Shown: positions 2,939 through 52,411 of the stretch, in pieces
How the letters are laid out: each line of letters starts with the position of its first letter
Numbering within the stretch: position 1 is the stretch's first letter
IMG/VR virus record: IMGVR_UViG_3300037751_000149
Span: 1 to 52,411 of that record
Source: a virus
Lineage: Duplodnaviria; Caudoviricetes
Reading direction: 5' to 3' (one strand)
Length of the DNA stretch: 52,411 nucleotides
Program-made: the position numbers and the translations under genes
The notes under the pieces: model-generated
Told to the model about the DNA's origin: nothing
Seen by the model: only the letters and a program-made list of their open reading frames with translations
Databases searched by the model: none

Positions 2939-2953
2939 GCTGCATCTCCTTTT

Positions 2954-3157
2954 TTAAGCGGCAAGCCGCCGCACTGCTTCGATGTGTGCCTGCTTTTTTA
3001 CCTGTTCGTGGTCGTCAAACTGCGGGTTGTTACAATCTGGGCAGAGGCAATAATTACGGTTTACCTCCCACCCGTGGGGCTTGGGATCTTCGCCCCACAG
3101 AAAAGTCTCGTCCTCGGCTGGGCAAAGATCGCACTTAAAAATGATCTTGACGCCCAC
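2954..3157 (-). CDS. small zinc-finger protein, paralog of 4207-4371
   Basis: CDLC...WGEDP...GW...CLCPDC. Confidence 0.7.
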   Translation of the reverse strand: MGVKIIFKCDLCPAEDETFLWGEDPKPHGWEVNRNYCLCPDCNNPQFDDHEQVKKQAHIEAVRRLAA

Positions 3158-3385: not shown

Positions 3386-3634
3386 CTACTGCGTTAAGGC
3401 CCTGGTGGTGTCGTGACCATCCAGGGCCGCTTTCTTTTTCTGGTACAGCTCGTAGTCAAGTTTGCCCTGGTAAAACCCCTCGATCATCAGCATTTCAGGC
3501 CCAGGCATGTAAAGCTGGCCGCTCTCCGCATCCGCCACAGTCAATACCTTGTGCGGGATCTCGGGGTAATTTTCCGATGGCGCAAGCTCTACGCGGACCG
3601 GCTTGCCGCCGAATTTGATTTCTACCTGTTCCAT
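3386..3634 (-). CDS. hypothetical protein
   Basis: 82-aa ORF in operon orientation. Confidence 0.6.
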   Translation of the reverse strand: MEQVEIKFGGKPVRVELAPSENYPEIPHKVLTVADAESGQLYMPGPEMLMIEGFYQGKLDYELYQKKKAALDGHDTTRALTQ

Positions 3635-3642
3635 TTTGCGAC

Positions 3643-4188
3643 CTACTCTTCCGTTTCCTCGGTGAACAGATCTTCCTTGACGTACCGGAGGGCATAGCCG
3701 TTTCTCTCAACCGCCTTGAGGCAGACCTGCTCGGTCTGGTCCTTGACGTACTGGAGGGCATCGCCGTTTCTCTCAACCGCCTTGAGGCAGACCTGCTCGG
3801 TCTGGTCCTTGACGTACCGGAGGGCATAGCCGTTTCTCTCAACCGCCTTGAGGCAGACCTGCTCGGTCTGGTCCTTGACGTACCGGAGGGCATCGCCGTC
3901 GCTCTCAACCGCCTTGAGGCAGACCTGCTCGGTCTGGTCCTTGACGTACCGGAGGGCATAGCCGTTTCTCTCAACCGCCTTGAGGCAGACCTGCTCGGTC
4001 TGGTCCTTGACGTACTGGAGGGCATCGCCGTTTCTCTCAACCGCCTTGAGGCAGACCTGCTCGGTCTGGTCCTTGACGTACCGGAGGGCATAGCCGTTTC
4101 TCTCAACCGCCTCAATCGCCAATTTTCCAGACAATTCACACTTGATAGACAATTTCTTCCATTTTTCGTACAGTCCGATCAGTTTCAT
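3643..4188 (-). CDS. DUF4116-like helical repeat protein
   Basis: 22-aa repeat AVERNG(Y/D)AL(R/Q)YVKDQTEQVCLK, ~6.6 copies. Confidence 0.8.
   Translation of the reverse strand: MKLIGLYEKWKKLSIKCELSGKLAIEAVERNGYALRYVKDQTEQVCLKAVERNGDALQYVKDQTEQVCLKAVERNGYALRYVKDQTEQVCLKAVESDGDALRYVKDQTEQVCLKAVERNGYALRYVKDQTEQVCLKAVERNGDALQYVKDQTEQVCLKAVERNGYALRYVKEDLFTEETEE
3674..4112. repeat. 66-bp coding tandem repeat, ~6.6 near-identical copies
   Basis: TCCTTGACGTA recurs at 3674, 3740 and onward with 66-bp period. Confidence 0.95.
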
Positions 4189-21100: not shown

Positions 21101-24100
21101 CTCTTGTTTGGTGCCGTCGCCGGTTGTTGCCAGATAGGTGCCATGTCCCAGGGGCTGGATTGATGCGGCACCCAGAATCTCGCTTTCCTTGGCAAACTTG
21201 GCTTTCTGCCGGTTCATTACCACATCAAACATGCGGCCCATCGCCGGGACATCCTTGAAATAATAAGCCGGGGTTGAAAGCAGGCGCTGCCAAAAAGTGA
21301 AGTCCTTTTTTTTCTTCTTGGTGGTAGACTTGCCGCGCTTTTCTACGAAGTCGGCAACTTCTTCCAGGTTCTCCAGGGACATGGGTGATCCCACATACTC
21401 CGCGCTATCTTCGCGCACCAAGTGTCCGGCCAACCCTTTCCGGCCAGAAAGCATACCCACCTCCGGCCTTATCCCCCTGTTGGCCAAAAACTCTCCTGAC
21501 TGTAGATGGACATCATGTAGTAGGTCAGTCTTCACCGCCTCCTCGAAGTTCAAGGCGGAGTTGTCTGGGACATTGACGGCAAACAACCTTGTTGACCCGG
21601 TCGCTCTCGCAAATTTTCTCAGCATCCCGGCCATGCGAATTTTACTTAGGGGGCTTACTTTTTCAACGGGGACGTCCATTATGCCAGTTACTAAAGATTC
21701 ACCGCCTGAGACACCGATAACCTGGAAGGTTTCTTTTGCCCCCTGTAGCTGCGCGGCGACACCGGCCAAGTGGTCAACGCTATTGATTTTCATGCCCAGG
21801 ATGGGGTGGGGGGTGGACGGTTCGTTTTTCCCGTAACGGTCAGCGGCCTGCGTTATGCTTGCCGGAAGTGGTTTAACCTGGACATCAAAACCTTGGATAG
21901 TGGCATAGCTGTCGTGGTTTATTACCACATGGCCAAGAAATAAATCTGGGAGTTCTGCGGCGATGGCGAGGGTGGTTTCCTTATCTTGTGCGCTTGGGGT
22001 GGGGTTGCCGCTGGGGTGATTATGCAGAAGGTAAAAGCCGTCCGCCCCCGACTTTTCCCCCATCTTTTGGATTTGGTCAACGCCATCTAGCAGGGTTGCT
22101 CCGCCGATAAATGCGGCGGATGCTCCAGGCAGCCGCGATGTAACACCGGTGATATTTACCACGCGCCCATCTTTTACAAAGACATACCTGTTCGTCTCGA
22201 AAGAGGGGTTGCGGAATATCTGGCCGATAATTGCCAGATCGGCGAGGCTCTCTACTCGTTGTCCGATGAGATTGATTTTGCTCTGGTCTTTGAAGGATTT
22301 GGCGATATTATTACCAAGTACGGTCCCAGGCAGCCCCCGCAGGTAGCCAGCGGCTTCTCGCTCTGCCCTTTCGTAGTTTCCTTGTTGTGCGCCGGTAAGG
22401 GTTTCGACTCTTCGCCCATATTCTCCCGCCTCCCGCCTGGAAATATTGTTTTTTGTATTGTCGCCCTCAATGGCGTAAGAGTCAAGCCCGGAGTACAGCG
22501 CCACGCCCTTGTCTGACTTCTCAATGATTCTGGCCAGCTTCTTTTTATCCCGCACAAGGGACGCTTCGATCTCAACCCGTTTAGCAGGAAGTATCTTGCC
22601 CTTCAGTAAGGTTCGCGCTTCGTTAATGCTGGCCCGGATTTGTTGTTCTTCTGTGGTCTGATGGCGAACCTGCTCAGGATAACGATCTACCGATTCATCC
22701 GTATTCTTTCCGGGCGCGTAGTCTGCTGGGGTCGCATCAGTTATCGAATATCCGGACTTCTCGTCATATTCTGCGGCCTTCGCAAGCAATCTTTCTCTGT
22801 GAGCCTGCATGTCTTGGGCAGATTCACCCGTCTGTTTGTCGCCGGTCATGTCATCCTGGGTTGACAAATCATGGGGGCCATTTGTCGTTTTTTCCGCTTC
22901 AAGCCGCCCAATCTCCTTCTTGTTCAGGGCCGGGTAATCATTCAGTCTGGCGATCTTCTCGTCTATTACGGCAACACGGGCCTCTTCTTTTGCGGACCGG
23001 TAAACATCTTCAAGGGTTGACCTGTTCTTCTCCTGAACAGGCGTCACCTCCCCGGTCTTCAATTCAATCTCTCCTATCTCTGTCCCAGTAACGGAGTGGG
23101 CCACCGTAGCTATTCCATCACTATCAACGCGATATTCAAACTGCTTGAATTGCCGTGAACCTGACTTGTCCTGCTTGTTTATGGCAACCCTGGCAATGTC
23201 GTCACCAGTCACCCCTATTGCTACGCCGGCAGATGGCTCAGTCCTTTCCGCCTCAAGCCGCTCCTTGGCCTGCTGAACCAGGGCCAGCTTCAGGGCGTTT
23301 TCCGGGTCTTTGGCCAGCATGGCACGGGCGTTTTCAAGCTCGGCCTCGCGGGTTGAGGCGGTCAGATTGTCGCCGGTTTTGTCACCAGAAATGTCACTGG
23401 TTTTGTCCATGTTATCTTCTTGTTTTACCGCAACTTCTTTCTTGGCATCTTCGTTAAAATGTCCAGCGTTTTGATCGGTGTTCAGCTCTGCGTTGTCGGC
23501 CTGGGCCACAGGAGCCACAGTATCAGCCTTATCAGTCTGGGCATGGGGGGTCTCCTTCGCTGAAGATAAAACAGCTTCGGATTTCTTTTTTATCTTGGCC
23601 AACTTGGCTGCGGCCTTGCTAGCGATCTCTTCCTGGATCGCTTCTTTGGCGGCCTCACGCTTGGCGGTCTTCCCGGTCGCATCGTCTACTATCTCCTGGG
23701 AGGAAATACGGGCAGACTCCCAAAACCTTGCGTCGCTGGTGAGCTTCCCGCGAACACTGTGGTCGCTCGTTCTTTTAAGCTCTGCTACTTTCTGCGCTGC
23801 CAGCGATAAGGCTTCTTCCGGCGATAAAGTTGCCGCTGTCTTTGCGGCCCACTCTCTTCCACCCTCCAGCGGAGACACAATCAGCGCAGCCCTCACCGCC
23901 GCCTCATGCTTCTTGGCAAAAACCAGACCGCCGCGCTTGGTATTCGGGATACCAGTGGGCGCAAAACCAGCGTCTTTCAATTTGGCTCGGAGTGTGGGGG
24001 TGTCGCCCAAGGCAATAATGGACTTGGCGCCAAGAGGTTCTACTGTGAATTGGAGGGATGAAGCAGGGGCCGATTCGCCAGGCTGGCTCGGCTGGGCCTT

Positions 24101-26569
24101 GATAGCCTCTTGCGAGGTCACGGAAGTAACCAAAGTAACCCCAGATGGCGCGCTTGCGTCAGAGGCGTCCGGGGTGTTGTTCTCTACTGCGGGTCGTTCG
24201 GTTCCGGCAGGTCCGGCACTGGCTTGTCCAGCATCTCCTGAAACTTCTTGGCGTGTTCCGGGTCCAGCCCCTTCCGCTCCATTTCCTTGATCGCGGCTTC
24301 CGCCTTCCGTTTCCCTTCTTTCTGGGTCGAGTTCATTGGGAGTCTCCCTGCTTATATTATCAGAACTCCCCCCCAGGATAGCAAGTTTTCGGCCTGTTCT
24401 TTTCTCGTACATCCCCCCAACCATATTGAAAAGCTGCTGGGCAAATGACGCTTGCCGGTGCAGGTTGTTCTGCCGAATGTAAGCAAACACGTCCGCCATC
24501 GCCGCCCGGTCTGCCTGGGGGATGGCGTTCTCGAAGTGAGCAAGGGCGTTGTCCGGGTCGTCCATTTCAGAGGTGGGCAATCCGGTTCTTCCGGCAAGAT
24601 CCTCTTTTTGTTTCGGGACGAGAATAAACCCTTTTTCTCCGGGACGCAAGGTTGATGCCTTAACAACATCGTGCGTCTTCATGCGCTTACCTGCCGCTCG
24701 TTTTGCCGCGGCCTCATTCACAATGGCCCGGCCATTCTTGGCGGTGATAATCGGGAGACCAGGAGCGGCTGCCTCTGCCGCCATTTCTGGAGAGTTGGCG
24801 CCATGCTCCCGTGCAGCATAATCGTTGATGTAGGCAAGCGCGGCCTCATGTCTCGGGACAAGGGGCTTGTTGGCCGCAAGCCTTCTGGTTGCCGCCATGA
24901 CATCAAACGGCGTTACCGTCTTCGCATAGTTGGTGCCGTGCTTGGCATCAAAGGCCTCTATCGTTGGTTTTCTGTACCATGAGGGAGAGAACTCGCCAAG
25001 CGGCTCCATCTTCCCTTCGGTGTCGTCTTTCGTCCGCTCAGACTCCCTCGGGATCGCCCGCTCAAGCCCAGATATTACGGCGCTATATTCCTTGGTGGTC
25101 TTGGGTGCTGGTTCGAACAACTTCCGGTTCGCTTCGTTCTGGGCATCGATCTCCTCTTTGGTCAACCGCTTCTTCCCTTTCGCAAGGGGTTCGGTAAATT
25201 CCAAGGATGATAGATCCCCAACCTCCTTGGCCGGCAGCACAGTCGGGCGGCCCGGCATGGACACCTGGCGCTCTTCTGGTTCTTGGTCAAAAGTGGGAGC
25301 CTCGGAAACTGGCGGGGCCAATATCTCCCCGGTGGTCGGGTCAACAGCTTCCGGCTGGGCCACATCTCCGGGAAGCTCCGGCTGATAGGCCTGATACTCA
25401 TCCTCCATCGTTGCTGTTGATGGATAATCCGGCAAGTCGCCCATGACCGGCTCCACAGCCGCAACATTCTCCCCAACAAGCATCTCCCTTTCTGCCTTGA
25501 GAGCGTCAAGGTTCTCCTGCGCCCTTGGGGATGCCTTGGCCGTGGTCTCCAGGTTGGCGATCTTCCGGTCAAGCTCGGCCGTATCTATGGGCTCCTGGCG
25601 CCCGGAATAACCGTAAACCTCTGCGGGGGCAGCTTCTACCGGGCTTGCCTCTTTTCTTCCGGTCAAGGCGTTAAACCCTCCGCCCATTGCCGCCCCGGCG
25701 AGAAGCCCCTGCGCCGCCGCCTCCGGCACTCCGTCGAGAAGATCCTTACCAAGGGCCGCGTTCTGCCACATCGTTTCCTGGACAGATTGCGGCAGCTCCT
25801 CGAACACGCCCTCAGATATGCCGCCGCCGATGATCCTGGCCGCGACATTGCCAACCCCCTTGGCCGCGCTTTTCTCTCCAGAACCAAGCCGCGCAAGGTA
25901 GGTGTCCGCGTCCTCAAGCCCGAACTTCTTTGCCAGCCTGCCACCCACCGCGCCGAACAGGGCAGTGCCCGCGCCGGACAAAACCGCAGCGGCATCTTGG
26001 CCGACCGACAACACCCCTTCTTCCGTCTGCTGCCGGGTTGACTCTGCCGAAGATCCTGCCGCCGCCACACCCTCGCCGACGGCCCCCGCCATGATCGGGC
26101 TTATTGCCGGGGCCAGCTTCCTGGCCGCGCCGCCTATCGCGCCGCCCCCGACCATCACAGGCAGAGACTCGATTACCGAATGGCCGATGGTGCTGGGGTT
26201 CGCCAGTGCCGCCTTGGCGGTATCGACAAAACCCTCTGCGTCAGAAACCTCCTGGTTGGCCCACTTCTGCGCCGGGGAATACTCTGCATCCAGAACCCGG
26301 TGCGTTGCCTGCGGGTCATACCCGATTGACTCAAGGGCCTTCCCGGCCCGGCCAAGCGTAGGAATATCAGCAAGGCCGACCACCGCCTCCCCGGCCCCCA
26401 CAACACCCTTGGCCGCAGAGACCCCAATGTCGGCGATGGTTCCACCGATGGTTCTTTCCGGCTGTTTTTTCTTCTGGTCCACATCTTGCGCCGCATTGCG
26501 GCCAAACTCCGGGTCGCTGAACGGGTTGAGGTCTGCGCCAAAATTCGGATCACTAAAAGGATTCGCCAT
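18191..26569 (-). CDS. giant (2792 aa) internal virion/DNA-ejection polyvalent protein with JAB (RadC-like) domain
   Basis: G/A-rich hydrophobic N-terminal region, central E...LLHNHPSGNPTPSAQD, last gene of virion block. Confidence 0.75.
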   Translation of the reverse strand: MANPFSDPNFGADLNPFSDPEFGRNAAQDVDQKKKQPERTIGGTIADIGVSAAKGVVGAGEAVVGLADIPTLGRAGKALESIGYDPQATHRVLDAEYSPAQKWANQEVSDAEGFVDTAKAALANPSTIGHSVIESLPVMVGGGAIGGAARKLAPAISPIMAGAVGEGVAAAGSSAESTRQQTEEGVLSVGQDAAAVLSGAGTALFGAVGGRLAKKFGLEDADTYLARLGSGEKSAAKGVGNVAARIIGGGISEGVFEELPQSVQETMWQNAALGKDLLDGVPEAAAQGLLAGAAMGGGFNALTGRKEASPVEAAPAEVYGYSGRQEPIDTAELDRKIANLETTAKASPRAQENLDALKAEREMLVGENVAAVEPVMGDLPDYPSTATMEDEYQAYQPELPGDVAQPEAVDPTTGEILAPPVSEAPTFDQEPEERQVSMPGRPTVLPAKEVGDLSSLEFTEPLAKGKKRLTKEEIDAQNEANRKLFEPAPKTTKEYSAVISGLERAIPRESERTKDDTEGKMEPLGEFSPSWYRKPTIEAFDAKHGTNYAKTVTPFDVMAATRRLAANKPLVPRHEAALAYINDYAAREHGANSPEMAAEAAAPGLPIITAKNGRAIVNEAAAKRAAGKRMKTHDVVKASTLRPGEKGFILVPKQKEDLAGRTGLPTSEMDDPDNALAHFENAIPQADRAAMADVFAYIRQNNLHRQASFAQQLFNMVGGMYEKRTGRKLAILGGSSDNISRETPNELDPERRETEGGSRDQGNGAEGAGPGTRQEVSGDAGQASAGPAGTERPAVENNTPDASDASAPSGVTLVTSVTSQEAIKAQPSQPGESAPASSLQFTVEPLGAKSIIALGDTPTLRAKLKDAGFAPTGIPNTKRGGLVFAKKHEAAVRAALIVSPLEGGREWAAKTAATLSPEEALSLAAQKVAELKRTSDHSVRGKLTSDARFWESARISSQEIVDDATGKTAKREAAKEAIQEEIASKAAAKLAKIKKKSEAVLSSAKETPHAQTDKADTVAPVAQADNAELNTDQNAGHFNEDAKKEVAVKQEDNMDKTSDISGDKTGDNLTASTREAELENARAMLAKDPENALKLALVQQAKERLEAERTEPSAGVAIGVTGDDIARVAINKQDKSGSRQFKQFEYRVDSDGIATVAHSVTGTEIGEIELKTGEVTPVQEKNRSTLEDVYRSAKEEARVAVIDEKIARLNDYPALNKKEIGRLEAEKTTNGPHDLSTQDDMTGDKQTGESAQDMQAHRERLLAKAAEYDEKSGYSITDATPADYAPGKNTDESVDRYPEQVRHQTTEEQQIRASINEARTLLKGKILPAKRVEIEASLVRDKKKLARIIEKSDKGVALYSGLDSYAIEGDNTKNNISRREAGEYGRRVETLTGAQQGNYERAEREAAGYLRGLPGTVLGNNIAKSFKDQSKINLIGQRVESLADLAIIGQIFRNPSFETNRYVFVKDGRVVNITGVTSRLPGASAAFIGGATLLDGVDQIQKMGEKSGADGFYLLHNHPSGNPTPSAQDKETTLAIAAELPDLFLGHVVINHDSYATIQGFDVQVKPLPASITQAADRYGKNEPSTPHPILGMKINSVDHLAGVAAQLQGAKETFQVIGVSGGESLVTGIMDVPVEKVSPLSKIRMAGMLRKFARATGSTRLFAVNVPDNSALNFEEAVKTDLLHDVHLQSGEFLANRGIRPEVGMLSGRKGLAGHLVREDSAEYVGSPMSLENLEEVADFVEKRGKSTTKKKKKDFTFWQRLLSTPAYYFKDVPAMGRMFDVVMNRQKAKFAKESEILGAASIQPLGHGTYLATTGDGTKQEFKSKEEASAFAEKTDFTRQGKKLKESAPDEYEAVKEYLKETDQSGYSFKLRMEGDQYKVLSPAGKMVGEFFNDRDKAIAFLYDQESEYLEKIGFAPEGVNYIRLGRELTNRALNELRAEMVQMQSDAKEAGLPDPFASGKTIDEAGRYGIYAEGQKEPVALFATEQQAADAMDRLAEMQSWFVMIQGGGSKVADPVERMFKDEAKAKAWARKRSGTVRGQKAFGNLRVKQRTDAEMRPMTVKQSIAAMDELVGSYMPRQRRDGAYVLVAKKDGENPIRKPFDADLRVDDTDEKPGWRDLVNQLSPNGREASRLTKQGYDVTVEKDASLSEDVFSAPRLVASLDAVLDSTMSVVDKKDSADIKASQHINLLLTQRAAAIIQQRGFLSSRMHRVGGDVWEGYEDDPQKALIQYAKGVAAGVAKRDMARDLMLAFTGRDVSWDAWEEKNPGKEYGEYLDFVKDRGVDASLQKNAYRDGVEYIVDMLRNDEQLDRIVGTMKGLAVQKFLAFRVSSAAVNLTNMVTGVPGTMSSALDITPWKAFAHIGKAATAYGKYLSGKGTLSAEDRGILQEITNRGLDDAQYNAEAARELRTEFGDKWNTFTTWGMALFGITEKANRAMTIFAAYKAAQEKHPELSEPDLWEKAEEISSDAHGRYDKGDRPAFTRGGDLGRILGLNYVFAKFGHNYLLNARKQFFANAPEEMGLDRYLYWDRQRTAAAYLMLSPAILAGAGASLPVSALMALAQAMGIGGDDPEEEYYKWAEDTFGSDAFARQGLAGMIGINLKGSLQANNPIPTKLSELGGAPGAVATDTWKGVKHLAKGEVWKGVEALVPTGFGSAFKAAREATEGITTSNYGQVFYGDEPLKADSLDAALRFFSFNPARLSGIREKQWNEKQVAAKYQERRSEINNQIKREFLQGKGITPEALKEIARYNELALGAGRPDIRPITMNSIRNMLRQNAKPSKFERTRAA

Positions 26570-32261: not shown

Positions 32262-32974
32262 GCCTCCTCGTACCGGATTACTTCATAGCTGTCCTGGCCG
32301 GACATCTCGCCTTTCAGCACGGCCATCCGTTGTGATACGGCGGAGGCCATCGTTTCCGTCTGCTGGGCATAGGCGGAAACCACCGACACCGGCTGAGACA
32401 TGTCGCCATAGGCCACGGTGTCAACCCCGCAATTTGCCGCAATCTTCGGCCCCTTTGCCCGCAGATCCCCGTCAGCCACCAGCCAGATAACAGCCTCGCC
32501 GGACAGCGATGGCTTTGCCTGCTTGATTGCCCCGTAGCCGATTATGGGCGTTACCGCCACCGCCTCGACCGTTGACATGGGGGCGGTAAGAGTGGCCTCG
32601 TCGGACATCCGCGAATCTATGCGGCCCTTTGGCTGCACGAACTGGCCGCTGATAATTATTTCGGTGGTGGCCTCGGCGGCTATCTCCGACCCTGGCTGCT
32701 CAACGGCGAAGTCGAACAGCTTATAGGTGAACACCTCGCTGTGCATGGCTGGGGCGCTCGGGAATCCAACCGCGCCATCACAGATTATCGGCGTCACCGC
32801 TTCCGCGATCACTGCGGCGACAGGTTGATTGACATCCCCCCACAGGTAAATATCCGTGGTGGACTCCCCATCCACAACCGGCAACGGGGCGATTATGTCC
32901 ACAAAGGGGCTTGTCAGCGACCCGTCGCCAAGGATGAAAGAGATATTTCCTATATCTGGAGGCGTGTAGCTCAT
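32258..32974 (-). CDS. putative tail protein
   Basis: acidic beta-rich ORF coupled at both ends. Confidence 0.6.
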   Translation of the reverse strand: MSYTPPDIGNISFILGDGSLTSPFVDIIAPLPVVDGESTTDIYLWGDVNQPVAAVIAEAVTPIICDGAVGFPSAPAMHSEVFTYKLFDFAVEQPGSEIAAEATTEIIISGQFVQPKGRIDSRMSDEATLTAPMSTVEAVAVTPIIGYGAIKQAKPSLSGEAVIWLVADGDLRAKGPKIAANCGVDTVAYGDMSQPVSVVSAYAQQTETMASAVSQRMAVLKGEMSGQDSYEVIRYEEA

Positions 32975-33261
32975 TAGAAAACCCTGCTGTGCCCGTAAAC
33001 TGCGGTATTCTCGCCCAGCTCTCCGTCAGCGATTACCGTAAACTCTGTTGTTGAGTGGCCCATTACTTGCGTGCTGAATGCTCCGAGAGCATCCGACTCA
33101 ACGACCGCCACAGGCGTGTTTAGGTTGTGTGTTTGGAAGATATAAACTTTTCTTTTTAACCCGGCACCGTTTGGTGCGCGAACAACCCCGGCAACAGTAA
33201 CGTAGGTGTTGGGGCTTATTGATGTGTTGAATAACCCGTCCGCGATATAAATTTCTGCCAC
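32974..33261 (-). CDS. small tail accessory protein
   Basis: VAGVV...RKVYIF...SDALGAFS. Confidence 0.6.
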   Translation of the reverse strand: MAEIYIADGLFNTSISPNTYVTVAGVVRAPNGAGLKRKVYIFQTHNLNTPVAVVESDALGAFSTQVMGHSTTEFTVIADGELGENTAVYGHSRVF

Positions 33262-33264
33262 GAA

Positions 33265-34257
33265 TCAGACCTCTTCTATAAGCACATTGCGGCCGGAATA
33301 CAGGAAAAAAAACCTATAATTGGTTGCGCCTCCAGTATGCGTACTTTCTGAAGTGAACGAGCTAATGGTGCTAAGTTGATTTTTTATCGGGCCGATCCAT
33401 GTCGCTGTTGTGCTGTAAAAAATTCTCTTTGCCGTGTATTTTCCAGAAAGTGAGTCTCCCGATGCCGGGCCTGTTACCATACTGTTGTCTGGGTTCACAG
33501 CAGAATTTTTTGTGCCCGCATGGTCTATTTGGAGCGCAATAGACCCGGCTGCATTTGCGCTATTGACAACATAATTTGTGTTTTCAAGCGCAAACTTACT
33601 TCCCGCAGCATAAGAGGCCACAAAGGCTGTGAATGTCACAATGTCCCCAGCAATTTCCGCAATGACAACCCGCTCTATATTGGCCGTATCCCGGACAAAC
33701 AGCTTTGTTCCGACAGCCCATTCCCCGGGAACTGCGGTGAAGGTTACGGCTACGCTCGACCCTGCTGTTATTGCATCTGGAGCAACCGTTACCGCTTGAG
33801 AAATTGGTGAGTCCGGCATCCATCCGCCAAATCCGGCATTGTAGTTTGTTGCATATTTTGCTATTCCGATAAAATTATCCAGATCCCCGTACACCCACAT
33901 CACATTGTTTGTGGACAGGGTGTTCTGCCAGTTATTTATTGTCCCGTAAGACTGAACTCCAGCGTGTGTGGTGTTGTTCCAGTACAGATACCCAATAATG
34001 TCGATGTACCCCGACTTGTAGAGAACCTTAAAATACAAATCTCTCTGCCCGTCTTCTCCGGGGGAATACATGACAAAATAATCGTTGATCGAAATGGTAT
34101 TCTCATTCACTGCATAGACGGCATCATGCAACGTCCACCCGATCCCCGTAGTGGAGTAGTCATAGGTGCCGTTCCGCTTGCACATGAAATCACGAAACCG
34201 CACAAAGGTTTCAATGGGGTTGTTGCACGAAACGGCAATCAGGTTGGCATAGGCCAT
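33265..34257 (-). CDS. putative receptor-binding/tail protein
   Basis: N/T/Y-rich ORF, lower GC, GWTLHD motif. Confidence 0.6.
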   Translation of the reverse strand: MAYANLIAVSCNNPIETFVRFRDFMCKRNGTYDYSTTGIGWTLHDAVYAVNENTISINDYFVMYSPGEDGQRDLYFKVLYKSGYIDIIGYLYWNNTTHAGVQSYGTINNWQNTLSTNNVMWVYGDLDNFIGIAKYATNYNAGFGGWMPDSPISQAVTVAPDAITAGSSVAVTFTAVPGEWAVGTKLFVRDTANIERVVIAEIAGDIVTFTAFVASYAAGSKFALENTNYVVNSANAAGSIALQIDHAGTKNSAVNPDNSMVTGPASGDSLSGKYTAKRIFYSTTATWIGPIKNQLSTISSFTSESTHTGGATNYRFFFLYSGRNVLIEEV

Positions 34258-47607: not shown

Positions 47608-48045
47608 TTACTGGCCGACAACGCGAAGCTGCGGCCTTTGTTTTTCCTCTGCCAAAACTATCTCCCTGGCCTCGGTGTCGCTGATCCCTTTATCGAGCAT
47701 CACCGCTACAACCTTTTTGGCGAATATCCTGGCTGCGTTTGCCTCTGGAGTGTCTACCCAGGCCTCTTCTTCAATCAGCCCGGCAACCGGCTTTTTAGGT
47801 GGGTTCCGGCATATCTCTTCATGGCAGGCAATAAGCTCATGGACAGCCGGGATGCCCTCGTATCTCTTCCTTGCCATCCTCACCGCGGTAAGAAAGTTTT
47901 CGGCAGACCACCCCATGTCCTCGAAGTCTTCAAGGTACTCATCCGTCAAAATTGCCAACTGCGCTCCCGTTTTGCTGTGAAATTTGGAGCGGATGTGTAA
48001 TCGCTGGATCTGATCGCCCACTATTTCCCTGGTCAGAGTCGCCAT
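47608..48045 (-). CDS. hypothetical replication-associated protein (helicase-loader position)
   Basis: GAGG SD; overlaps the 3' end of the initiator gene. Confidence 0.6.
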   Translation of the reverse strand: MATLTREIVGDQIQRLHIRSKFHSKTGAQLAILTDEYLEDFEDMGWSAENFLTAVRMARKRYEGIPAVHELIACHEEICRNPPKKPVAGLIEEEAWVDTPEANAARIFAKKVVAVMLDKGISDTEAREIVLAEEKQRPQLRVVGQ

Positions 48046-48871
48046 ATTTTTTCCTCAAAAGATTTCGCGCCATTGCGTCATTTTCCAAAACCTGTGCCTG
48101 GTGTACGGTGTTCGCCCTGATTGCGGTTCCTGGCTGTGGGGGTGCTCGGCGCGGCCTGTTCTGCTCACCGCCAAGCCACCGGGTTATGTGCCCCCTGATT
48201 CCAGCAGCGGTTTTTCTCTTGGCTGGGTTGTCCGTGTTCCACTGCCGGATTTCCTTGAGTGCCTGGAGAACATCAACCGCCTGGAAGGTGTCTTGCCATT
48301 GGTCGATGTCAATCTGGGTGATGTTGAAATTACCGTCCCTTTTTATCAGGGGGATGGTGAGTATTGCAGGCTCGACAATTTCCGGCAAAAGAACGGCTGG
48401 CGATGGGCCGGATTCTTCCGGCTCGGCGCAAGTCTTTTCTTCAGGAATCAGTGAATCAGGAATCAGTAACAAGGAATCAGGAATCAGGGGGATATTCACC
48501 GTTACTTCACCGTGAATATCAGGAGTATCAGAATTACAACAAGATAAGGTGCGCTCTGGAATAATTGACTTCTTTTCCGTGTGGTGCGGCTGCTGGTGTT
48601 TTTGGAAGTTTTCGATCTGAATATACTGCTCACCGTCAACCACATATCTATCCACAAACTTTAACCGTGCAAGTTTCGTGAGTTCACCGTTAACGTCGCA
48701 ATCATAGTAAGGGAACAGTTCAGCTTTAATTAACCTGGGCTTATCCTCAAGACGGCCATCTCTATCCGCAAGGCACCACAACCCAGCAAATAGAAGCTGG
48801 GATACAGGGCCAAGGTCTGCAAGATCGTAGTTTTTAAAGAACCCTGGCTTGATATTTCTTGACCTAGCCAC
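47939..48871 (-). CDS. phage replication initiator (O-like)
   Basis: MARSRNIKPGFF...LLFAGLWCLADRDGRL...NFQKHQ; C-terminal WNTDNPAKRKT..GI...ITRWL. Confidence 0.85.
   Translation of the reverse strand: MARSRNIKPGFFKNYDLADLGPVSQLLFAGLWCLADRDGRLEDKPRLIKAELFPYYDCDVNGELTKLARLKFVDRYVVDGEQYIQIENFQKHQQPHHTEKKSIIPERTLSCCNSDTPDIHGEVTVNIPLIPDSLLLIPDSLIPEEKTCAEPEESGPSPAVLLPEIVEPAILTIPLIKRDGNFNITQIDIDQWQDTFQAVDVLQALKEIRQWNTDNPAKRKTAAGIRGHITRWLGGEQNRPRRAPPQPGTAIRANTVHQAQVLENDAMARNLLRKKYGDSDQGNSGRSDPAITHPLQISQQNGSAVGNFDG
48445..48533. repeat. GAATCAG iteron-like repeats, putative replication origin
   Basis: GAATCAG at 48445, 48453, 48460, 48474, 48481 plus degenerate copies, in the linker of the initiator gene. 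Confidence 0.6.
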
Positions 48872-48972: not shown

Positions 48973-49148
48973 CTATTTTCATTATCCGCCTTTTCCCTTT
49001 ATGTTTGTATCAACTCCCCAGGGGTCCAGGCTGGTTCAACTCGCTGATAAGGACATTTGACACTTCAACCAAAAAAATATCAATGGTAATAAATAAAAAG
49101 ATCAGTGCTTATACACGAAACATGAATGGTTGTTCATAATTACAACCG

Positions 49149-49334
49149 TCAAATTAAGTTTTTGTCTTTCGCCATCCACTCCGGCATCGTCACCACCACC
49201 GTCTGCCCGACCTCGCCCTCATATTCAAGCTGCGATTTCGGCAGCCACTCGGTTACATCTCCGTCCGTTACCTGGATGGCACGCTCTGATTCCCGCAGGA
49301 TTTCTACTGTGATTTCGGTTGTGGCTTGGCTCAT
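49149..49334 (-). CDS. small acidic hypothetical protein
   Basis: ESERAIQV...WLPKSQ...MPEWMAKDK; ATGA coupling. Confidence 0.75.
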   Translation of the reverse strand: MSQATTEITVEILRESERAIQVTDGDVTEWLPKSQLEYEGEVGQTVVVTMPEWMAKDKNLI

Positions 49335-50098
49335 GCGGATACCTCTGGAAACGCTTGGCCCTGCAACTCTTCCGGGATCGGTGCGCCTGCGCTCATTTGC
49401 TTCATAAAGAATGGGGTGCCGGAAACAGCACATTGCGCCTTGAGATATCCGGCCCAATCTTTTTCCATGATCCGAGCTTCCGGCCCCGATTCTCCCCCAC
49501 AGATAACCCAATGAATCTTTGGATTATCATCGGCATGTTCGTGGACACCTGGGGTTTGATAAACTCCAGCCAAGGCGTCGTATGTTGCAGCTCCGCCCAA
49601 ATCAATTCTTGTTAAATCGACCTCACCAACCATGGGCTCAACGGAAACAAAAAGAACTGGTGCCCCATGGACAGAAAAAAGGATAGGAATACGCTTGTTT
49701 GCCACCTCCTGATTCTCGGCGGTAACGCCAAGCCACACGTTTTTAAATGGCCATCCGACAGGCAACCGACCGGCGATGTTCTCTGGCCGCTTCGTGAGTA
49801 TCTGGTATGTCAGGTGCGGAGTCTTGCGGATGATCTCCCACGCCTCGTCGCGCCACGGGTCAGCTTCCTTAATGAAGAAGTCTGACCATGAGCAGATAAA
49901 TACCTTGGCCGGTTCTTTCCATTTCAACGGGAGATTGAAGGTGGCAGGCTTGGAGCGGATCACCGTTGCCGGGTCTTGCCCGTACCTGTTTTTGTCCCGG
50001 TACATATAGCAATTCATGCAGCCAGGAGACACCTTATGGCAACCCTGCCATGGGTTCCATGTGTTGTCGGTCCATAATATTCCTGAGTTCTCAGCCAT
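49331..50098 (-). CDS. DUF5131 (phage Gp37/Gp68) radical-SAM-like protein
   Basis: WTDNTWNPWQGCHKVSPGCMNCY, LTKRP, WVICGGESG, PFFMKQ. Confidence 0.92.
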   Translation of the reverse strand: MAENSGILWTDNTWNPWQGCHKVSPGCMNCYMYRDKNRYGQDPATVIRSKPATFNLPLKWKEPAKVFICSWSDFFIKEADPWRDEAWEIIRKTPHLTYQILTKRPENIAGRLPVGWPFKNVWLGVTAENQEVANKRIPILFSVHGAPVLFVSVEPMVGEVDLTRIDLGGAATYDALAGVYQTPGVHEHADDNPKIHWVICGGESGPEARIMEKDWAGYLKAQCAVSGTPFFMKQMSAGAPIPEELQGQAFPEVSA

Positions 50099-50201
50099 TT
50101 TGTTTCCTCCTACCTATAAGCCCCGGCCCAGATAGCAAAGAGATTCACAACTAGGGCCAGGGTTAAAATTGCCATGGTTCTGCGCTGCCAGGTGGTCATA
50201 A

Positions 50202-50390
50202 TTAAAACACCACCTTTTCATCAACGCACTGCTCATTGTCCGGCTCAACCCGGAAGGAAATAATCAAACCCAACTCAAAGGCATCTTTGAATATGTCGTG
50301 GAGTTTTGTCTTGGGGTTCTGGAATTTCTTTCCAAGAATCTCCAGCTTTTTCCCATACTCGGCTAACCCGTTTGTTTCTTGAGTGCTCAT
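50202..50390 (-). CDS. hypothetical protein
   Basis: AGGAGG SD; ATGA coupling. Confidence 0.6.
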   Translation of the reverse strand: MSTQETNGLAEYGKKLEILGKKFQNPKTKLHDIFKDAFELGLIISFRVEPDNEQCVDEKVVF

Positions 50391-50704
50391 GCCTTTATAA
50401 TCCTCCTTTCAAACCTGTTTGCCAGCGTCCGCATGATCCCTCGGTGCGTGTAAAACCGCTGGTCCTCATCGTTGATAAGCTCCCCGTTGATCCGCAACCT
50501 GCGGTCGATGTAATCGTGTCAGGGGCCGCACCCATCGGCCACCGCGAAGTCTGGGGCCTTGGTGCCGTTGCGATCCTCACAAAGAGGAGAATGACAGGGA
50601 ACGGTTGTCTCGGTGCCGCCGATACACACGCCTGGAATCTCAAGGGTGCAATACTGGCCATTGGCCGCATCGGTGAGCTTCTTGTTTCTGAAAGGTGCGC
50701 TCAT
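50387..50704 (-). CDS. YbcO/DUF1364-like nuclease-domain protein with in-frame TGA (candidate selenocysteine)
   Basis: ANGQYCTLEIPGVC...TTVPCH...GTKAPD...GCGP[TGA]HDYID; frame continues 43 more codons to an ATGA overlap at 50387-50390. Confidence 0.8.
50489..50521 (-). promoter_or_regulatory. candidate bacterial SECIS element
   Basis: UGA CACGAUUACAUC GA-CCGCA-GGU-UGCGG-A-UC; G-initiated apical loop 19 nt after UGA. Confidence 0.65.
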
Positions 50705-51219
50705 GCCATCCCTTTTCTCAGATGATCGACCAAATCATTCCCGATTTGCGGCACCAGCTTTCGGAGCAGAGTTTCGCGTGGCATCGCCCGCAGACCACGC
50801 TCAGAAATCATGTAGGCCGAGTGCGGGCCGGCGGAATATTCCAGATGCACTGCGGCCTGAAAAGTTTCCCTGTTTTCTTTCAGAAACACCCGGAGTGCCC
50901 ACAGGTCTATTCTCCGAAATGCTATTGAATCTGGCCGGTCATCCCCAACAACCACACCTAAATCCAGGGGAGGGAACGCCTCTGCTCGGCATCTATCGCG
51001 TGGCCCAACCCCCATCAACTTCTTTGGCGGCAGAGCAATGGAATTATGGCAGACTGATTCAATTATGGCCCGCATCTCAAGCATGTTGACCCTTGCATCT
51101 TTCAGCTCTGCCGAATAATAATTCATCAATTCGGCGCTCAGTTGTTGAGCTTGCTTCCATTTCACTATCTCTTCCAGGTGCTTCCGCTTCTGGTTTCTTC
51201 CGTATCTCCGAGACATCAT
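50701..51219 (-). CDS. hypothetical phage protein
   Basis: MSRRYGRNQKRK start; ATGA-coupled both sides. Confidence 0.7.
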   Translation of the reverse strand: MMSRRYGRNQKRKHLEEIVKWKQAQQLSAELMNYYSAELKDARVNMLEMRAIIESVCHNSIALPPKKLMGVGPRDRCRAEAFPPLDLGVVVGDDRPDSIAFRRIDLWALRVFLKENRETFQAAVHLEYSAGPHSAYMISERGLRAMPRETLLRKLVPQIGNDLVDHLRKGMA

Positions 51220-51674
51220 CTCCCCCTATCGTCCGGATGCGGCAGCCTGATCGCAAGCCCCGCCGCCTCCCGCTCAACTTCGTTCATAAATTCCGACATC
51301 TGCTTGATGCCGGCCTTGGTAATCGACGTTTCCTTGACGATATGCCGCCACAGCCTGTCGGCCTCTTCTTTCATCCCCATGGCCCGCACAGCATCAAGCG
51401 ACGAGACCATTTCAGCGTATTCAATGTCATCCCGGATGAAGATAGGGACAAGATGCCGCTCTTTGCTTTGCTCGTGCATGGCATCCTTGGTCATGCCAAG
51501 CTCTTCGCCGATAATTCCCATCCACTTGAAGTACAGCCCGCGCTGTTCTGCGCTAATGTCCTTCTTTGCCTCACGGATGATGATCTCATGGACAGGCTCC
51601 ATGGGTAGCCCAGCAATAATCGCCTGCGCCCTGGCGGCAAGCTCCGGGGTTCTGATGGTGAGGGTTTGCTTCAT
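51216..51674 (-). CDS. NinB/YbcN-like recombination protein
   Basis: SAEQRGLYFKW...MHEQSK...SITK....QMSEFM...GLAIRLP. Confidence 0.7.
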   Translation of the reverse strand: MKQTLTIRTPELAARAQAIIAGLPMEPVHEIIIREAKKDISAEQRGLYFKWMGIIGEELGMTKDAMHEQSKERHLVPIFIRDDIEYAEMVSSLDAVRAMGMKEEADRLWRHIVKETSITKAGIKQMSEFMNEVEREAAGLAIRLPHPDDRGR

Positions 51675-52411
51675 GCGCCGGCCACCATATCCATGGGGCT
51701 GATTACCCCGGCACCGCGGCTCATCACATGCAGGTATATCTGCGTGGTGCGGATGTCGTCGTGGCCCAGGAGATCCTGCACGGTGCGAATGTCAACCCCG
51801 CTTTCGAGCAGGTGCGTGGCGAAGGAGTGGCGAAACGAATGGCAGGAGGCCATCTTGTTGACCTTTGCCCGCCGCACTGCCAGCTTTACCTGCCGCTGCA
51901 AGGCCGATTCGTGCAGGTGGTGGCGGTAGAAACATCCGGTTGGCTTGTCCACGCACAGGCGGGAAGCGGGAAAGATGTACTGCCAAGCCAGTTCCTTGGA
52001 GGCGTTCCGGTATTTGCGGGCCAGCGCCGGTTCCATGGTGGATCCCTCGTAGCCGTGCGCGAGATCGTCGGCAAGCAGGGCCTCCGCCCGGGCGACATGC
52101 GCCCGCAGGCGGTCCACCGCCGAGACAGGCAAAGGGACGATCCGGTCTTTTTGCCCCTTGCCGAATTTGACATGCAGGGAGGCGCGGTCAAAATCAATCT
52201 CCTTGACCCGCAGACGGCAGCACTCCATAAGCCGAAGGCCTGAGCCGTAAAGCAGGGCAGCCATAAGCGCATAGGGCTCCGGGAGCAGGGAGATAACCCG
52301 CTTGGCTTCGGCACGACTGAAGACCACCGGCAGGTTTTTCGGCCGCTTGGCCCGAACGAACTGGCTAAAATCCCCGACCTCAACCTGGATCACATGCTTG
52401 TAAAGAAAAAC
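51671..52411 (-). CDS. intI: integron integrase (5' end beyond window)
   Basis: FLYKHV, RAKRPKNLPVVFS, LLYGSGLRLMEC, GKGQKDR, IntI-specific insertion ALARKY...WQYIFP...RHHLHESALQR, HSFRHSFATHLL, LLGH, TTQIY; frame open to window edge. Confidence 0.95.
   Translation of the reverse strand, partial: VFLYKHVIQVEVGDFSQFVRAKRPKNLPVVFSRAEAKRVISLLPEPYALMAALLYGSGLRLMECCRLRVKEIDFDRASLHVKFGKGQKDRIVPLPVSAVDRLRAHVARAEALLADDLAHGYEGSTMEPALARKYRNASKELAWQYIFPASRLCVDKPTGCFYRHHLHESALQRQVKLAVRRAKVNKMASCHSFRHSFATHLLESGVDIRTVQDLLGHDDIRTTQIYLHVMSRGAGVISPMDMVAGA

What the first reader, a model, noticed from the sequence alone, without database searches (positions are those of the whole stretch)
50387..50704. Candidate phage-encoded selenoprotein: CxxU nuclease-domain protein with a SECIS-like hairpin
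Seen: the YbcO/DUF1364-like frame reads GCGP-TGA-HDYID, so the TGA (50519-50521) sits exactly at the second Cys of the family's CxxCH metal-binding motif. The frame continues 43 sense codons to a stop overlapping the next ATG, as for an intact gene. Directly 3' is a hairpin CCGCA-GGU-UGCGG with the loop 19 nt from UGA. Known: bacterial SECIS elements lie immediately after UGA with a G-initiated apical loop, and the E. coli fdhF element has the similar apical sequence GCAGGUCUGC. Inference: the phage uses host SelB/tRNA-Sec, making this nuclease-like protein, and possibly coupled downstream translation, selenium-dependent. This implies a Sec-utilising host. A simple TGY-to-TGA nonsense mutation or sequencing error remains possible.
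Basis: partly seen in the sequence, partly recalled or inferred. Interest (0 to 1): 0.85.

Follow-up and report, generated by a model that had tools for sequence, protein, structure and literature searches.

The report
Possible selenocysteine codon in phage nuclease
A small nuclease-like gene of an uncultured sediment phage carries a conserved in-frame TGA exactly where all its relatives have a zinc-binding cysteine, which fits a phage-encoded selenoprotein, a kind my literature searches did not find described, although this is not proven and the host is unknown.

Summary
A YbcO/DUF1364 (His-Me finger) gene on the minus strand (50704..50387) has TGA at codon 62 (50521..50519). This replaces the second Cys of the CxxCH motif, which is Cys in the 49 other sequences of my 50-sequence family alignment.

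It is not a sequencing error. The same TGA is in an independent metagenome contig (L003, 88% DNA identity) and in three Logan contigs.

Neighbouring codons carry synonymous changes while the TGA is kept. The 42 codons after it stay open with dN/dS 0.19 (neutral simulation P about 0.02). The cassette sits in two different gene orders.

TGA is otherwise an ordinary stop in this phage.

The downstream hairpin meets the published bacterial SECIS consensus and occurs only in the TGA clade. It is weak, however (-7.6 kcal/mol, against -12 to -18 for five genuine elements in one sediment MAG). In my scan, 11-13% of all TGA triplets in the window also pass.

No Rfam SECIS match was found. The host, and so its Sec machinery, is unknown.

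Verdict:
- selenocysteine recoding is the best single explanation (about 0.5)
- an inherited nonsense mutation is about 0.25
- leaky near-cognate read-through is about 0.2

The parts
50387..50704 (-). YbcO/DUF1364-like His-Me finger (treble-clef zinc finger) gene. It has 105 sense positions if codon 62 is read through, plus the terminal stop.
   Evidence: Pfam PF07102, 65 bits. (PHROG 131, HNH endonuclease). (PDB 3g27, E 1e-16). (model pLDDT 95.2; 3g27 TM 0.89 normalised by target length).
50519..50521 (-). In-frame TGA at codon 62, in the place of the second Cys of CxxCH. It is followed by C (UGAC) and preceded by a Pro codon.
   Evidence: Cys at this column in 20 of 20 full-length close homologues and in the 49 other sequences of a 50-sequence alignment. 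The TGA is kept in L003. Contigs of X1, X3 and X4 show no other letter there.
50522..50704 (-). Codons 1-61. They hold three of the four presumed zinc ligands (C19, C27, C59) and the conserved His38. This is the only product if the TGA terminates.
   Evidence: Gene callers list 61-aa products.
50390..50518 (-). Codons 63-105. They contain the invariant H63 and D67, helix 60-66 of the beta-beta-alpha motif and the long C-terminal helix 79-99. The frame is open and conserved.
   Evidence: dN/dS 0.19 against L003. Neutral simulation P 0.02.
50489..50506 (-). SECIS-like hairpin. The core is 5 bp, CCGCA/UGCGG (50504..50492), with loop GGU (50499..50497). It extends to 7 bp with one bulged A. The loop starts 19 nt after UGA.
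   Evidence: Identical in L003. X4 shows no change in the core. Absent from the Cys-type relatives L001, L004, L005 and L006.
50387..50390 (-). ATGA overlap: the terminal TGA of the gene and the ATG of the next 62-aa gene (50390..50202).
50402..50407 (-). AGGAGG Shine-Dalgarno-like sequence for the downstream gene. It lies inside the last codons of the YbcO-like gene.
   Evidence: Read directly. Function is inferred.
50701..50704 (-). ATGA overlap between the stop of the upstream 172-aa gene (51219..50701) and the start of the YbcO-like gene.
   Evidence: In L003 the gene starts in the same way, overlapping the stop of a different upstream gene (DUF5131).

Best explanation
The gene encodes a full-length YbcO-like His-Me finger protein whose codon 62 UGA is recoded, most probably as selenocysteine.

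Proposed mechanism:
- The host's SelB with Sec-tRNA(Sec) binds the small hairpin that starts 12-14 nt after the UGA. Its G-initiated apical loop starts 19 nt after the UGA.
- It competes with release factor 2 at a poor termination context (Pro-UGA-C).
- The selenolate then takes the place of the fourth cysteine ligand of the structural zinc site, at the start of the beta-beta-alpha helix.
- Ribosomes that terminate instead give a 61-residue fragment. That fragment lacks the invariant H63 and D67 and both helices.

Shown here:
- the TGA, its position at the Cys column and its persistence in diverged relatives
- selection on the downstream frame
- a consensus-compatible hairpin confined to the TGA clade
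- the standard genetic code elsewhere in the phage

Inferred, not shown:
- read-through itself
- the identity of the inserted residue
- SelB dependence
- a Sec-using host
- the zinc-ligand role of position 62, which rests on the treble-clef classification of YbcO in PMC4999995
For: 1. The TGA sits at a column that is Cys in 20 of 20 close full-length homologues, in the 49 other sequences of alignment A3, and in 55 of 56 related loci with a readable motif, duplicates included.

2. The TGA persists in diverged copies.
- Three distinct 61-aa variants end in GCGP.
- L003 is 88% identical over 332 nt and keeps the TGA, while the three codons before it and the one after it all carry synonymous changes.
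- The 36-kb X4 contig shows 31 differences over 50405-50704, none at the TGA.

3. The downstream frame looks translated.
- Codons 63-104 against L003 give 7 synonymous and 6 non-synonymous differences, dN/dS 0.19. Upstream the ratio is 0.10.
- P(at least 7 of 13 synonymous) is 0.02 under simulated neutrality.
- In both the window and L003, none of the downstream residues that are invariant or nearly invariant in alignment A1 (H63, D67, R68, R69, Q82, R83, Y85, H87, R88, R92, T93, L94, A95) is changed, and there is no stop or frameshift.

4. The cassette is kept in two different gene orders. In each, its start overlaps the preceding stop.

5. The hairpin meets all four published bSECIS constraints (passages of PMC13188914; tests). 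It is found only in the TGA clade.

6. Five genuine Sec sites of a sediment deltaproteobacterial MAG have the same layout. Four begin UGACAC and two have 3-nt G-initiated loops.

7. TGA is a normal stop here. It ends 32 of 66 greedy ORFs and is absent from the 2792-codon ORF.

8. The model shows that truncation at codon 62 removes helices 60-66 and 79-99.
Against: - The hairpin is short and weak: -7.6 kcal/mol over 48 nt, against a model limit of -7.5 and against -12.0 to -18.3 for the five genuine elements.
- 11-13% of all TGA triplets in the window pass the same criteria, and 5 of 55 Cys-type loci pass through other hairpins.
- The fold z-score is -0.01.
- No Rfam family matched, even at E up to 10.
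- All TGA copies form one close clade, so TGA and hairpin each count as a single evolutionary event, and no covariation can be tested.
- No independent TGA was found elsewhere in the family.
- The host is unknown. The window holds no tRNA-Sec, no selB and no tRNA gene at all.
- In the passages I read, known bacterial Sec residues are described as active-site residues of oxidoreductases (PMC1794560 abstract). A structural zinc ligand would be unusual.
- Cys codons are one transversion from TGA, so a plain nonsense mutation at this position is easy.
- The selection test rests on only 13 differences.
Confidence: 0.5

Rival explanations
1. Inherited nonsense mutation. A TGY-to-TGA change in the common ancestor of this small clade truncated the protein. 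The gene is now a not-yet-decayed pseudogene, or the 61-residue fragment is the only product, and the hairpin is fortuitous.
For: - Cys codons are one step from TGA.
- All TGA copies belong to one close clade.
- The hairpin passes criteria that 11-13% of random TGAs also pass, and it is thermodynamically marginal.
- There is no Rfam match.
- Under neutrality the downstream frame would stay free of stops in about 65-68% of simulations.
- The next gene has its own AGGAGG, so truncation need not harm it.
Against: - Downstream dN/dS is 0.19, with P about 0.02 against neutrality.
- The downstream residues that are invariant or nearly invariant in alignment A1 are all kept in the window and in L003.
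- The His codon right after the TGA carries a synonymous change.
- The cassette is kept intact in two different gene orders.
- The TGA itself is unchanged, although all four adjacent codons differ at their third position between the window and L003.
- The truncated product lacks invariant H63 and D67 and two helices.
Confidence: 0.25
2. Programmed or tolerated leaky read-through without selenium. The weak stop context Pro-UGA-C lets a near-cognate tRNA (Trp, or Cys) read a small share of UGA codons. This gives a low, possibly useful, dose of a potentially harmful nuclease next to a truncated fragment.
For: - The evidence that the downstream frame is translated fits this reading as well as the Sec reading.
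- UGA followed by C, and a preceding Pro, are poor termination contexts in E. coli. This is my recollection of Poole, Brown and Tate 1995 and of Hayes, Bose and Sauer 2002, not checked here.
- The weakness of the hairpin is no objection to this reading.
Against: - The usual near-cognate reading of UGA in bacteria inserts Trp (recalled). That would put Trp at a column that is Cys in the 49 other aligned sequences, which makes selection on the rest of the protein hard to explain.
- This reading does not account for a consensus-type hairpin arising only in the TGA clade.
Confidence: 0.2
3. Artefact or other decoding: a sequencing or assembly error, a TGA-sense genetic code (tables 4 or 25), a phage suppressor tRNA, or a split protein made by re-initiation at TTG codon 70.
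For: - Metagenome assemblies can carry errors.
- There is a TTG in frame at codon 70.
Against: - The TGA is in L003 and in contigs of three runs.
- TGA ends 32 of 66 greedy ORFs and is absent from a 2792-codon ORF.
- ARAGORN finds no tRNA in the window.
- Re-initiation at codon 70 would leave the conserved codons 63-69 (H63, D67, R68, R69) untranslated, and no Shine-Dalgarno sequence precedes the TTG.
Confidence: 0.03

Closest known systems
E. coli formate dehydrogenase H (fdhF) UGA140 with its SECIS element
   Same: In both, UGA is followed directly by CAC (Sec-His). A hairpin lies inside the coding sequence just 3' of the UGA, with the apical sequence GCAGGU. The first loop G lies 22-23 nt from the U of UGA. 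Both sequences were read.
   Different: The fdhF element folds at -14.9 kcal/mol over 48 nt, the phage element at -7.6. The phage loop is GGU, shifted by one base. It lacks a 5' bulged U; the requirement for that bulge in E. coli SelB binding is recalled, not tested. In fdhF the Sec is a catalytic Mo ligand (title of a reference seen; otherwise recalled). Here it would be a structural zinc ligand. The host is almost certainly not E. coli.
E. coli DLP12 prophage protein YbcO (PDB 3g27; Pfam PF07102/DUF1364; His-Me finger group 7; treble-clef zinc finger)
   Same: Same family and fold. Both lie in a lambda nin-type region: NinB/Orf and a replication initiator are nearby, and the neighbours described in PMC5714182 include RusA and Q (passages).
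   Different: YbcO and all other members examined have Cys at the fourth ligand position. This clade has TGA there. Nuclease activity is predicted, not shown, for the family (PMC4999995 and PMC5714182, passages).
[NiFeSe] hydrogenase large subunits
   Same: A metal-ligand Cys of a CxxC motif is replaced by Sec (abstract of PMC13582414, seen in the listing).
   Different: There the metal site is catalytic and redox-active and the enzyme is cellular. Here the site is a presumed structural zinc site in a phage protein.
Poxvirus glutathione peroxidase selenoproteins (molluscum contagiosum virus, fowlpox virus)
   Same: A virus-encoded gene whose UGA is decoded as Sec by host machinery. In fowlpox the SECIS lies inside the coding sequence (PMC8310308, passages).
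   Different: Those are eukaryotic viruses carrying captured cellular redox enzymes with eukaryotic SECIS elements. That review names no bacteriophage example in the passages I read.
Leaky UGA read-through in phage Q-beta (coat protein extended to protein A1)
   Same: A phage gene in which a share of ribosomes reads through UGA to give a longer product. Recalled, not checked here.
   Different: In Q-beta the inserted residue is unimportant and the extension is a separate domain. Here the UGA lies inside a compact domain, at a ligand position that is Cys in all other aligned members.

Membership tests
Pfam PF07102 YbcO / DUF1364 (His-Me finger, treble-clef zinc finger) | Match to the family HMM above the gathering score | tested here: met
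   65 bits against 29.9, covering residues 9-95 and so spanning the TGA. PHROG 131, E 7e-22.
Pfam PF07102 YbcO / DUF1364 (His-Me finger, treble-clef zinc finger) | Fold like the solved member 3g27 | tested here: met
   AlphaFold model pLDDT 95.2. Foldseek finds 3g27 at E 4e-6, TM 0.89 by target length, rmsd 2.0.
Pfam PF07102 YbcO / DUF1364 (His-Me finger, treble-clef zinc finger) | Four Cys ligands and the conserved His on the beta-hairpin | tested here: inconclusive
   C19, C27, C59, H38, H63 and D67 are present. The fourth ligand position is TGA. It counts as met only if the TGA is decoded as Sec or Cys.
Bacterial selenoprotein gene (Sec/Cys pair plus SECIS) | In-frame UGA aligned with Cys in homologues, with both flanks conserved | tested here: met
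Bacterial selenoprotein gene (Sec/Cys pair plus SECIS) | UGA kept in more than one diverged sequence, with the downstream frame under purifying selection | tested here: met
   Window, L003 and the X4 contig. dN/dS 0.19, P about 0.02. This is a single close clade, so power is low.
Bacterial selenoprotein gene (Sec/Cys pair plus SECIS) | bSECIS consensus as given in PMC13188914: 3-9 nt loop, 4-16 bp upper stem, G in the first two loop positions, 16-37 nt from UGA to the loop, MFE at most -7.5 kcal/mol | tested here: met
   Loop GGU, stem of 5 bp (7 with a bulge), spacing 19 nt, MFE -7.6. The energy is borderline. 11-13% of all TGA triplets in the window also pass. This was my own implementation, not bSECISearch.
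Bacterial selenoprotein gene (Sec/Cys pair plus SECIS) | Match to a curated SECIS covariance model | tested here: not met
   No Rfam 15 SECIS family matched 50200-50800 at E up to 10. From recollection, Rfam's bacterial SECIS models cover few lineages.
Bacterial selenoprotein gene (Sec/Cys pair plus SECIS) | Occurs in an organism with selA, selB, selC and selD | not testable with these tools
   The host is unknown. The only lead is a terminase 54% identical to one on a contig of a deltaproteobacterial MAG. That MAG does have selB, selD (with an in-frame TGA) and tRNA-Sec.
Bacterial selenoprotein gene (Sec/Cys pair plus SECIS) | Selenium incorporated; read-through depends on SelB | not testable with these tools
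   Needs an experiment.
E. coli-type SelB-binding SECIS (fdhF/fdnG type) | Loop G23 and U24 and a bulged U17, counted from the U of UGA (recalled from the literature) | tested here: not met
   The phage has G23, G24 and U25 and no 5' bulged U. This bears on E. coli SelB only, not on the unknown host's SelB.

The most novel reading that the evidence does not exclude
A clade of temperate sediment phages encodes a genuine selenoprotein. In a YbcO-type His-Me finger nuclease, selenocysteine replaces a structural zinc-ligand cysteine and is inserted by the host SelB at a minimal, recently evolved SECIS. My searches found no earlier bacteriophage selenoprotein and no Sec in a treble-clef zinc site. 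Synthesis of the full-length nuclease would then depend on the host's selenium status.
Probability: 0.45. Interest if true: 0.8.

Novelty: new variant of a known kind. Interest (0 to 1): 0.62.

Why it matters
Sec recoding is well known in cells and in two poxviruses. I found no description of a bacteriophage selenoprotein in four full-text searches or in the passages I read from two selenoproteome papers of 2026 and one virus-recoding review.

If confirmed, it would show three things:
- Phages can exploit their host's Sec machinery.
- New selenoproteins can arise by a single TGY-to-TGA change together with a minimal five-base-pair hairpin.
- Sec can serve at a structural zinc site.

It would also make such phages markers of Sec-using hosts. 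The case gives a short, easily cloned test element: the UGA plus about 45 nt.

If it is instead a leaky stop or a pseudogene, it is a useful negative example. It would show how far the Sec/Cys-pair-plus-SECIS criteria can mislead in GC-rich phage DNA.

Tried and rejected
- **Rfam**, region 50200-50800 at E up to 10: only three chance-level matches, none a SECIS family.
- **Viral contigs.** A scan with the single protein found no relative. A scan with alignment A1 found two loci, both Cys-type. A degenerate DNA pattern for CGP-TGA-HDYID found nothing. The tool warns that near-identical records may be left out.
- **Genome contigs** with A1: one locus (L062), which is not a true relative.
- **Genomes of G001's phylum:** no relative of A1 in 401 genomes searched.
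- **Shorter proteins** (30-57 aa): none found.
- **Representative library:** 651 hits. None of the best 150 ends near residue 61. Truncated forms would be cluster members rather than representatives, so this says little.
- **Host assignment.** The terminase is at best 54% identical to one on a deltaproteobacterial MAG contig. DUF5131 is at best 52% identical to one in an Acidobacteriota MAG. Phage-collection DNA hits cover only 2-4% of the query. I name no host.
- **Relatives of a virus record** are not drawn by the genome search.
About 6 of its 31 differences are not listed there.
- **Other read-through candidates.** A scan of the window for other TGA-split frames gave 142 mostly non-coding frames and no second convincing case.
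- **TGA-sense code.** Rejected.
- **Supplements** of papers are closed. The list of the 111 selenoprotein families of BSepDB (its Table S2) was not seen. The main text has none of the words phage, nuclease, HNH or zinc.

Full report
**What is there**

The window is an IMG/VR virus record of 52,411 bases, estimated 67% complete. It carries a terminase, a P22-like portal and an integrase. The region of the finding is a lambda nin-like early region: a NinB/Orf homologue (51674..51216) and a replication initiator (48871..47939) lie nearby.

On the minus strand, 50704..50387 reads as one frame of 105 sense positions, interrupted once by TGA at codon 62 (50521..50519). It ends at a second TGA that overlaps the ATG of the next gene. 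Read through, the product matches:
- Pfam YbcO/DUF1364, 65 bits against a cut-off of 29.9, residues 9-95
- PHROG 131, HNH endonuclease
- the solved E. coli prophage protein YbcO, PDB 3g27, at E 1e-16

An AlphaFold model built on 50 sequences has pLDDT 95.2. It superposes on 3g27 with TM 0.89 by target length. The family is classed as a treble-clef zinc finger and His-Me finger with a predicted nuclease function (passages of PMC4999995 and PMC5714182).

The TGA replaces the second Cys of CxxCH. That column is Cys in:
- 20 of 20 full-length close homologues (61-84% identical)
- the 49 other sequences of a 50-sequence alignment, where C19, V35, H38, C59, C62, H63 and D67 are the invariant columns
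- 55 of the 56 related loci with a readable motif, some of them duplicates

The hairpin CCGCA-GGU-UGCGG is at 50504..50492, and its loop starts 19 nt after UGA. E. coli K-12 fdhF has TGA at codon 140 followed by CACGGCCCATCGGTTGCAGGTCTGCACC.

**Not an error and not another code**

The protein collection holds three distinct 61-residue products ending in GCGP.

One of them is encoded on L003, a 60-kb contig of another metagenome. There the gene is 88% identical over 332 nt and has TGA at the same codon.

I laid Logan contigs of four sediment-metagenome runs on 50250-50850. Contigs of X1, X3 and X4 cover the site without any other letter. The 36,294-base X4 contig differs at 31 places between 50405 and 50704.

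TGA is an ordinary stop in this phage. It ends 32 of 66 greedily chosen ORFs, and no TGA occurs in the 2792-codon ORF. ARAGORN finds no tRNA, and the window has no tRNA-Sec or selB.

**Evidence that the downstream part is translated**

Between the window and L003, the three codons before the TGA (TGC>TGT, GGC>GGA, CCC>CCA) and the one after it (CAC>CAT) all differ synonymously, while the TGA is unchanged.

Nei-Gojobori counts:

| Region | Synonymous | Non-synonymous | dN/dS |
|---|---|---|---|
| Codons 1-61 | 16 | 7 | 0.10 |
| Codons 63-104 | 7 | 6 | 0.19 |

I placed 13 random substitutions on the downstream part, using the observed ts/tv ratio of 1.05. At least 7 were synonymous in 2% of 20,000 trials.

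I also made a hand count of events over three lineages, translating the X4 differences myself. It gives about 8 synonymous and 7 non-synonymous events (simulated P 0.012). This count is less secure, because about 6 of the X4 differences are not listed.

In both the window and L003, no downstream residue that is invariant or nearly invariant in alignment A1 has changed, and there is no stop or indel. Absence of a stop alone means little, since 65-68% of neutral simulations also have none.

The gene order differs between the two phages:
- L003: NinB-like, DUF5131, YbcO, then a 70-aa gene
- window: NinB-like, a 172-aa gene, YbcO, a 62-aa gene, then DUF5131

So the TGA-bearing cassette has been carried through a rearrangement. 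Each time, its ATG overlaps the preceding stop.

Truncation at codon 62 would remove the helix of the beta-beta-alpha motif (residues 60-66, with H63 and D67) and the long helix 79-99.

Together this makes some form of read-through the likelier state. I estimate about 0.7-0.75.

**The hairpin**

The published consensus for bacterial SECIS elements is (Fig. 2 legend of PMC13188914, read as a passage):
- a 3-9 nt apical loop
- a 4-16 bp upper stem
- a G in the first two loop positions
- 16-37 nt from UGA to the loop
- MFE at most -7.5 kcal/mol

The phage element meets all of these: loop GGU; 5 bp, or 7 bp with one bulge; 19 nt; -7.6 kcal/mol over 48 nt.

This is weak evidence, for four reasons:
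- In my implementation, 173 of 1533 TGA triplets of the window pass (202 of 1532 with 60 nt). With the G[GU] pattern 79 pass (96 with 60 nt).
- 5 of 55 Cys-type loci pass through unrelated hairpins.
- The 71-nt fold is no better than shuffles.
- Rfam gives no SECIS match.

In its favour, the hairpin is identical in L003 and unchanged in X4. It is absent from the closest Cys-type relatives with DNA (L001/L006, L004, L005). Its 3' arm is made by the clade-specific residues Leu70-Arg71.

As a yardstick, I read five distinct Sec sites in G001, a deltaproteobacterial MAG that holds the nearest terminase relative (54% identity). The sites are in SelD, MvhD and three formate dehydrogenase genes. G001 has selB, a Sec-containing selD and tRNA-Sec. 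In these five sites:
- All five pass my criteria.
- Four begin UGACAC, as the phage element does.
- Two have 3-nt G-initiated loops.
- They fold at -12.0 to -18.3 kcal/mol, and four of the five have stems of 7-9 bp.

The phage element therefore has the right architecture but is the weakest of the set.

BSepDB reports canonical elements in 87.4% of its entries (passage).

**Host**

The host is unknown. Runs holding the sequence are labelled sediment metagenomes. The best leads point to different phyla at only 52-54% identity. No YbcO relative was found in G001 or in 401 genomes of its phylum. The requirement of a Sec-using host is therefore open.

**Weighing**

Selenocysteine recoding explains the most observations at once:
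- the position at a ligand Cys
- retention of the TGA
- selection on the rest of the protein
- a poor termination context (Pro-UGA-C; its weakness is recalled from E. coli work)
- a clade-specific hairpin of consensus type

Against it stand the marginal hairpin, the single evolutionary origin, the unknown host and the unusual role: a structural zinc ligand rather than a redox centre. The nearest analogy is Sec replacing a metal-ligand Cys of a CxxC motif in [NiFeSe] hydrogenases (abstract of PMC13582414, listing).

My estimates:

| Reading | Probability |
|---|---|
| Sec recoding | about 0.5 |
| Inherited nonsense mutation | 0.25 |
| Selenium-independent leaky read-through | 0.2 |
| Artefacts or other decoding | 0.03 |

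**Novelty**

Four full-text searches listed no paper describing a phage-encoded selenoprotein. I read titles and abstract starts only.

- A 2021 review of viral recoding names only two poxviruses (passages).
- A 2026 review of prokaryotic selenoproteomes and the BSepDB paper contain neither 'phage' nor 'nuclease' in their main text.
- Their supplementary family lists could not be read.

If real, this is a new variant of a known mechanism: a new kind of carrier (a phage), a new protein family and a new kind of site.

Noticed in passing
window 50399-50405: Contigs of runs X1 (otherwise nearly identical to the window) and X4 carry 219 other letters in place of window 50400-50404, inside the AGGAGG before the next gene. 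The window therefore seems to lack a short segment, possibly a small gene, that its closest relatives have. The last four codons of the YbcO-like gene may be hybrid.
   Followed up: partly
L003 186-2009 against window 49080-51674: Gene order is mosaic. In L003, DUF5131 lies directly upstream of the YbcO-like gene and a 70-aa gene follows it. In the window, a 172-aa gene precedes it, and a 62-aa gene and then DUF5131 follow.
   Followed up: yes
window 3674-4112: Tandem repeat of a 66-nt unit, 6.7 copies, 96% matches, inside a 214-aa minus-strand ORF (3495..4139) that has no PHROG match.
   Followed up: no
window 18191-26569 (minus strand): A single ORF of 2792 codons, about one sixth of the window. 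It was not annotated here.
   Followed up: no
L058-L061 (four soil-metagenome loci), about 1501-1600: YbcO-like N-termini (..CIGGTETTVLCA) run into a stop directly after the conserved strand, and the frame does not continue. They may be interrupted or decayed copies.
   Followed up: no
window 32974-34257 (minus strand): A 330-aa ORF and a 95-aa ORF lie in the same frame, separated only by TGA and one codon. Neither has a PHROG match. Whether this is a second read-through was not examined.
   Followed up: no
window 51671-52411 (minus strand): The tyrosine recombinase at the end of the contig shows 72-73% DNA identity over about 130 nt to class 1 integron integrase intI1 records. Pfam Phage_integrase matches at E 6e-35.
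   Followed up: no
G001 loci L077, L094, L097/L098, L099, L101: In one sediment deltaproteobacterial MAG, four of five Sec codons read here are followed by CAC (His). Two SECIS elements have 3-nt loops, GGC and GGG.
   Followed up: partly
L003 about 2929-3132: A dinucleotide-type repeat inside the replication-protein gene of the relative translates as runs of QI or TD, depending on the frame.
   Followed up: no
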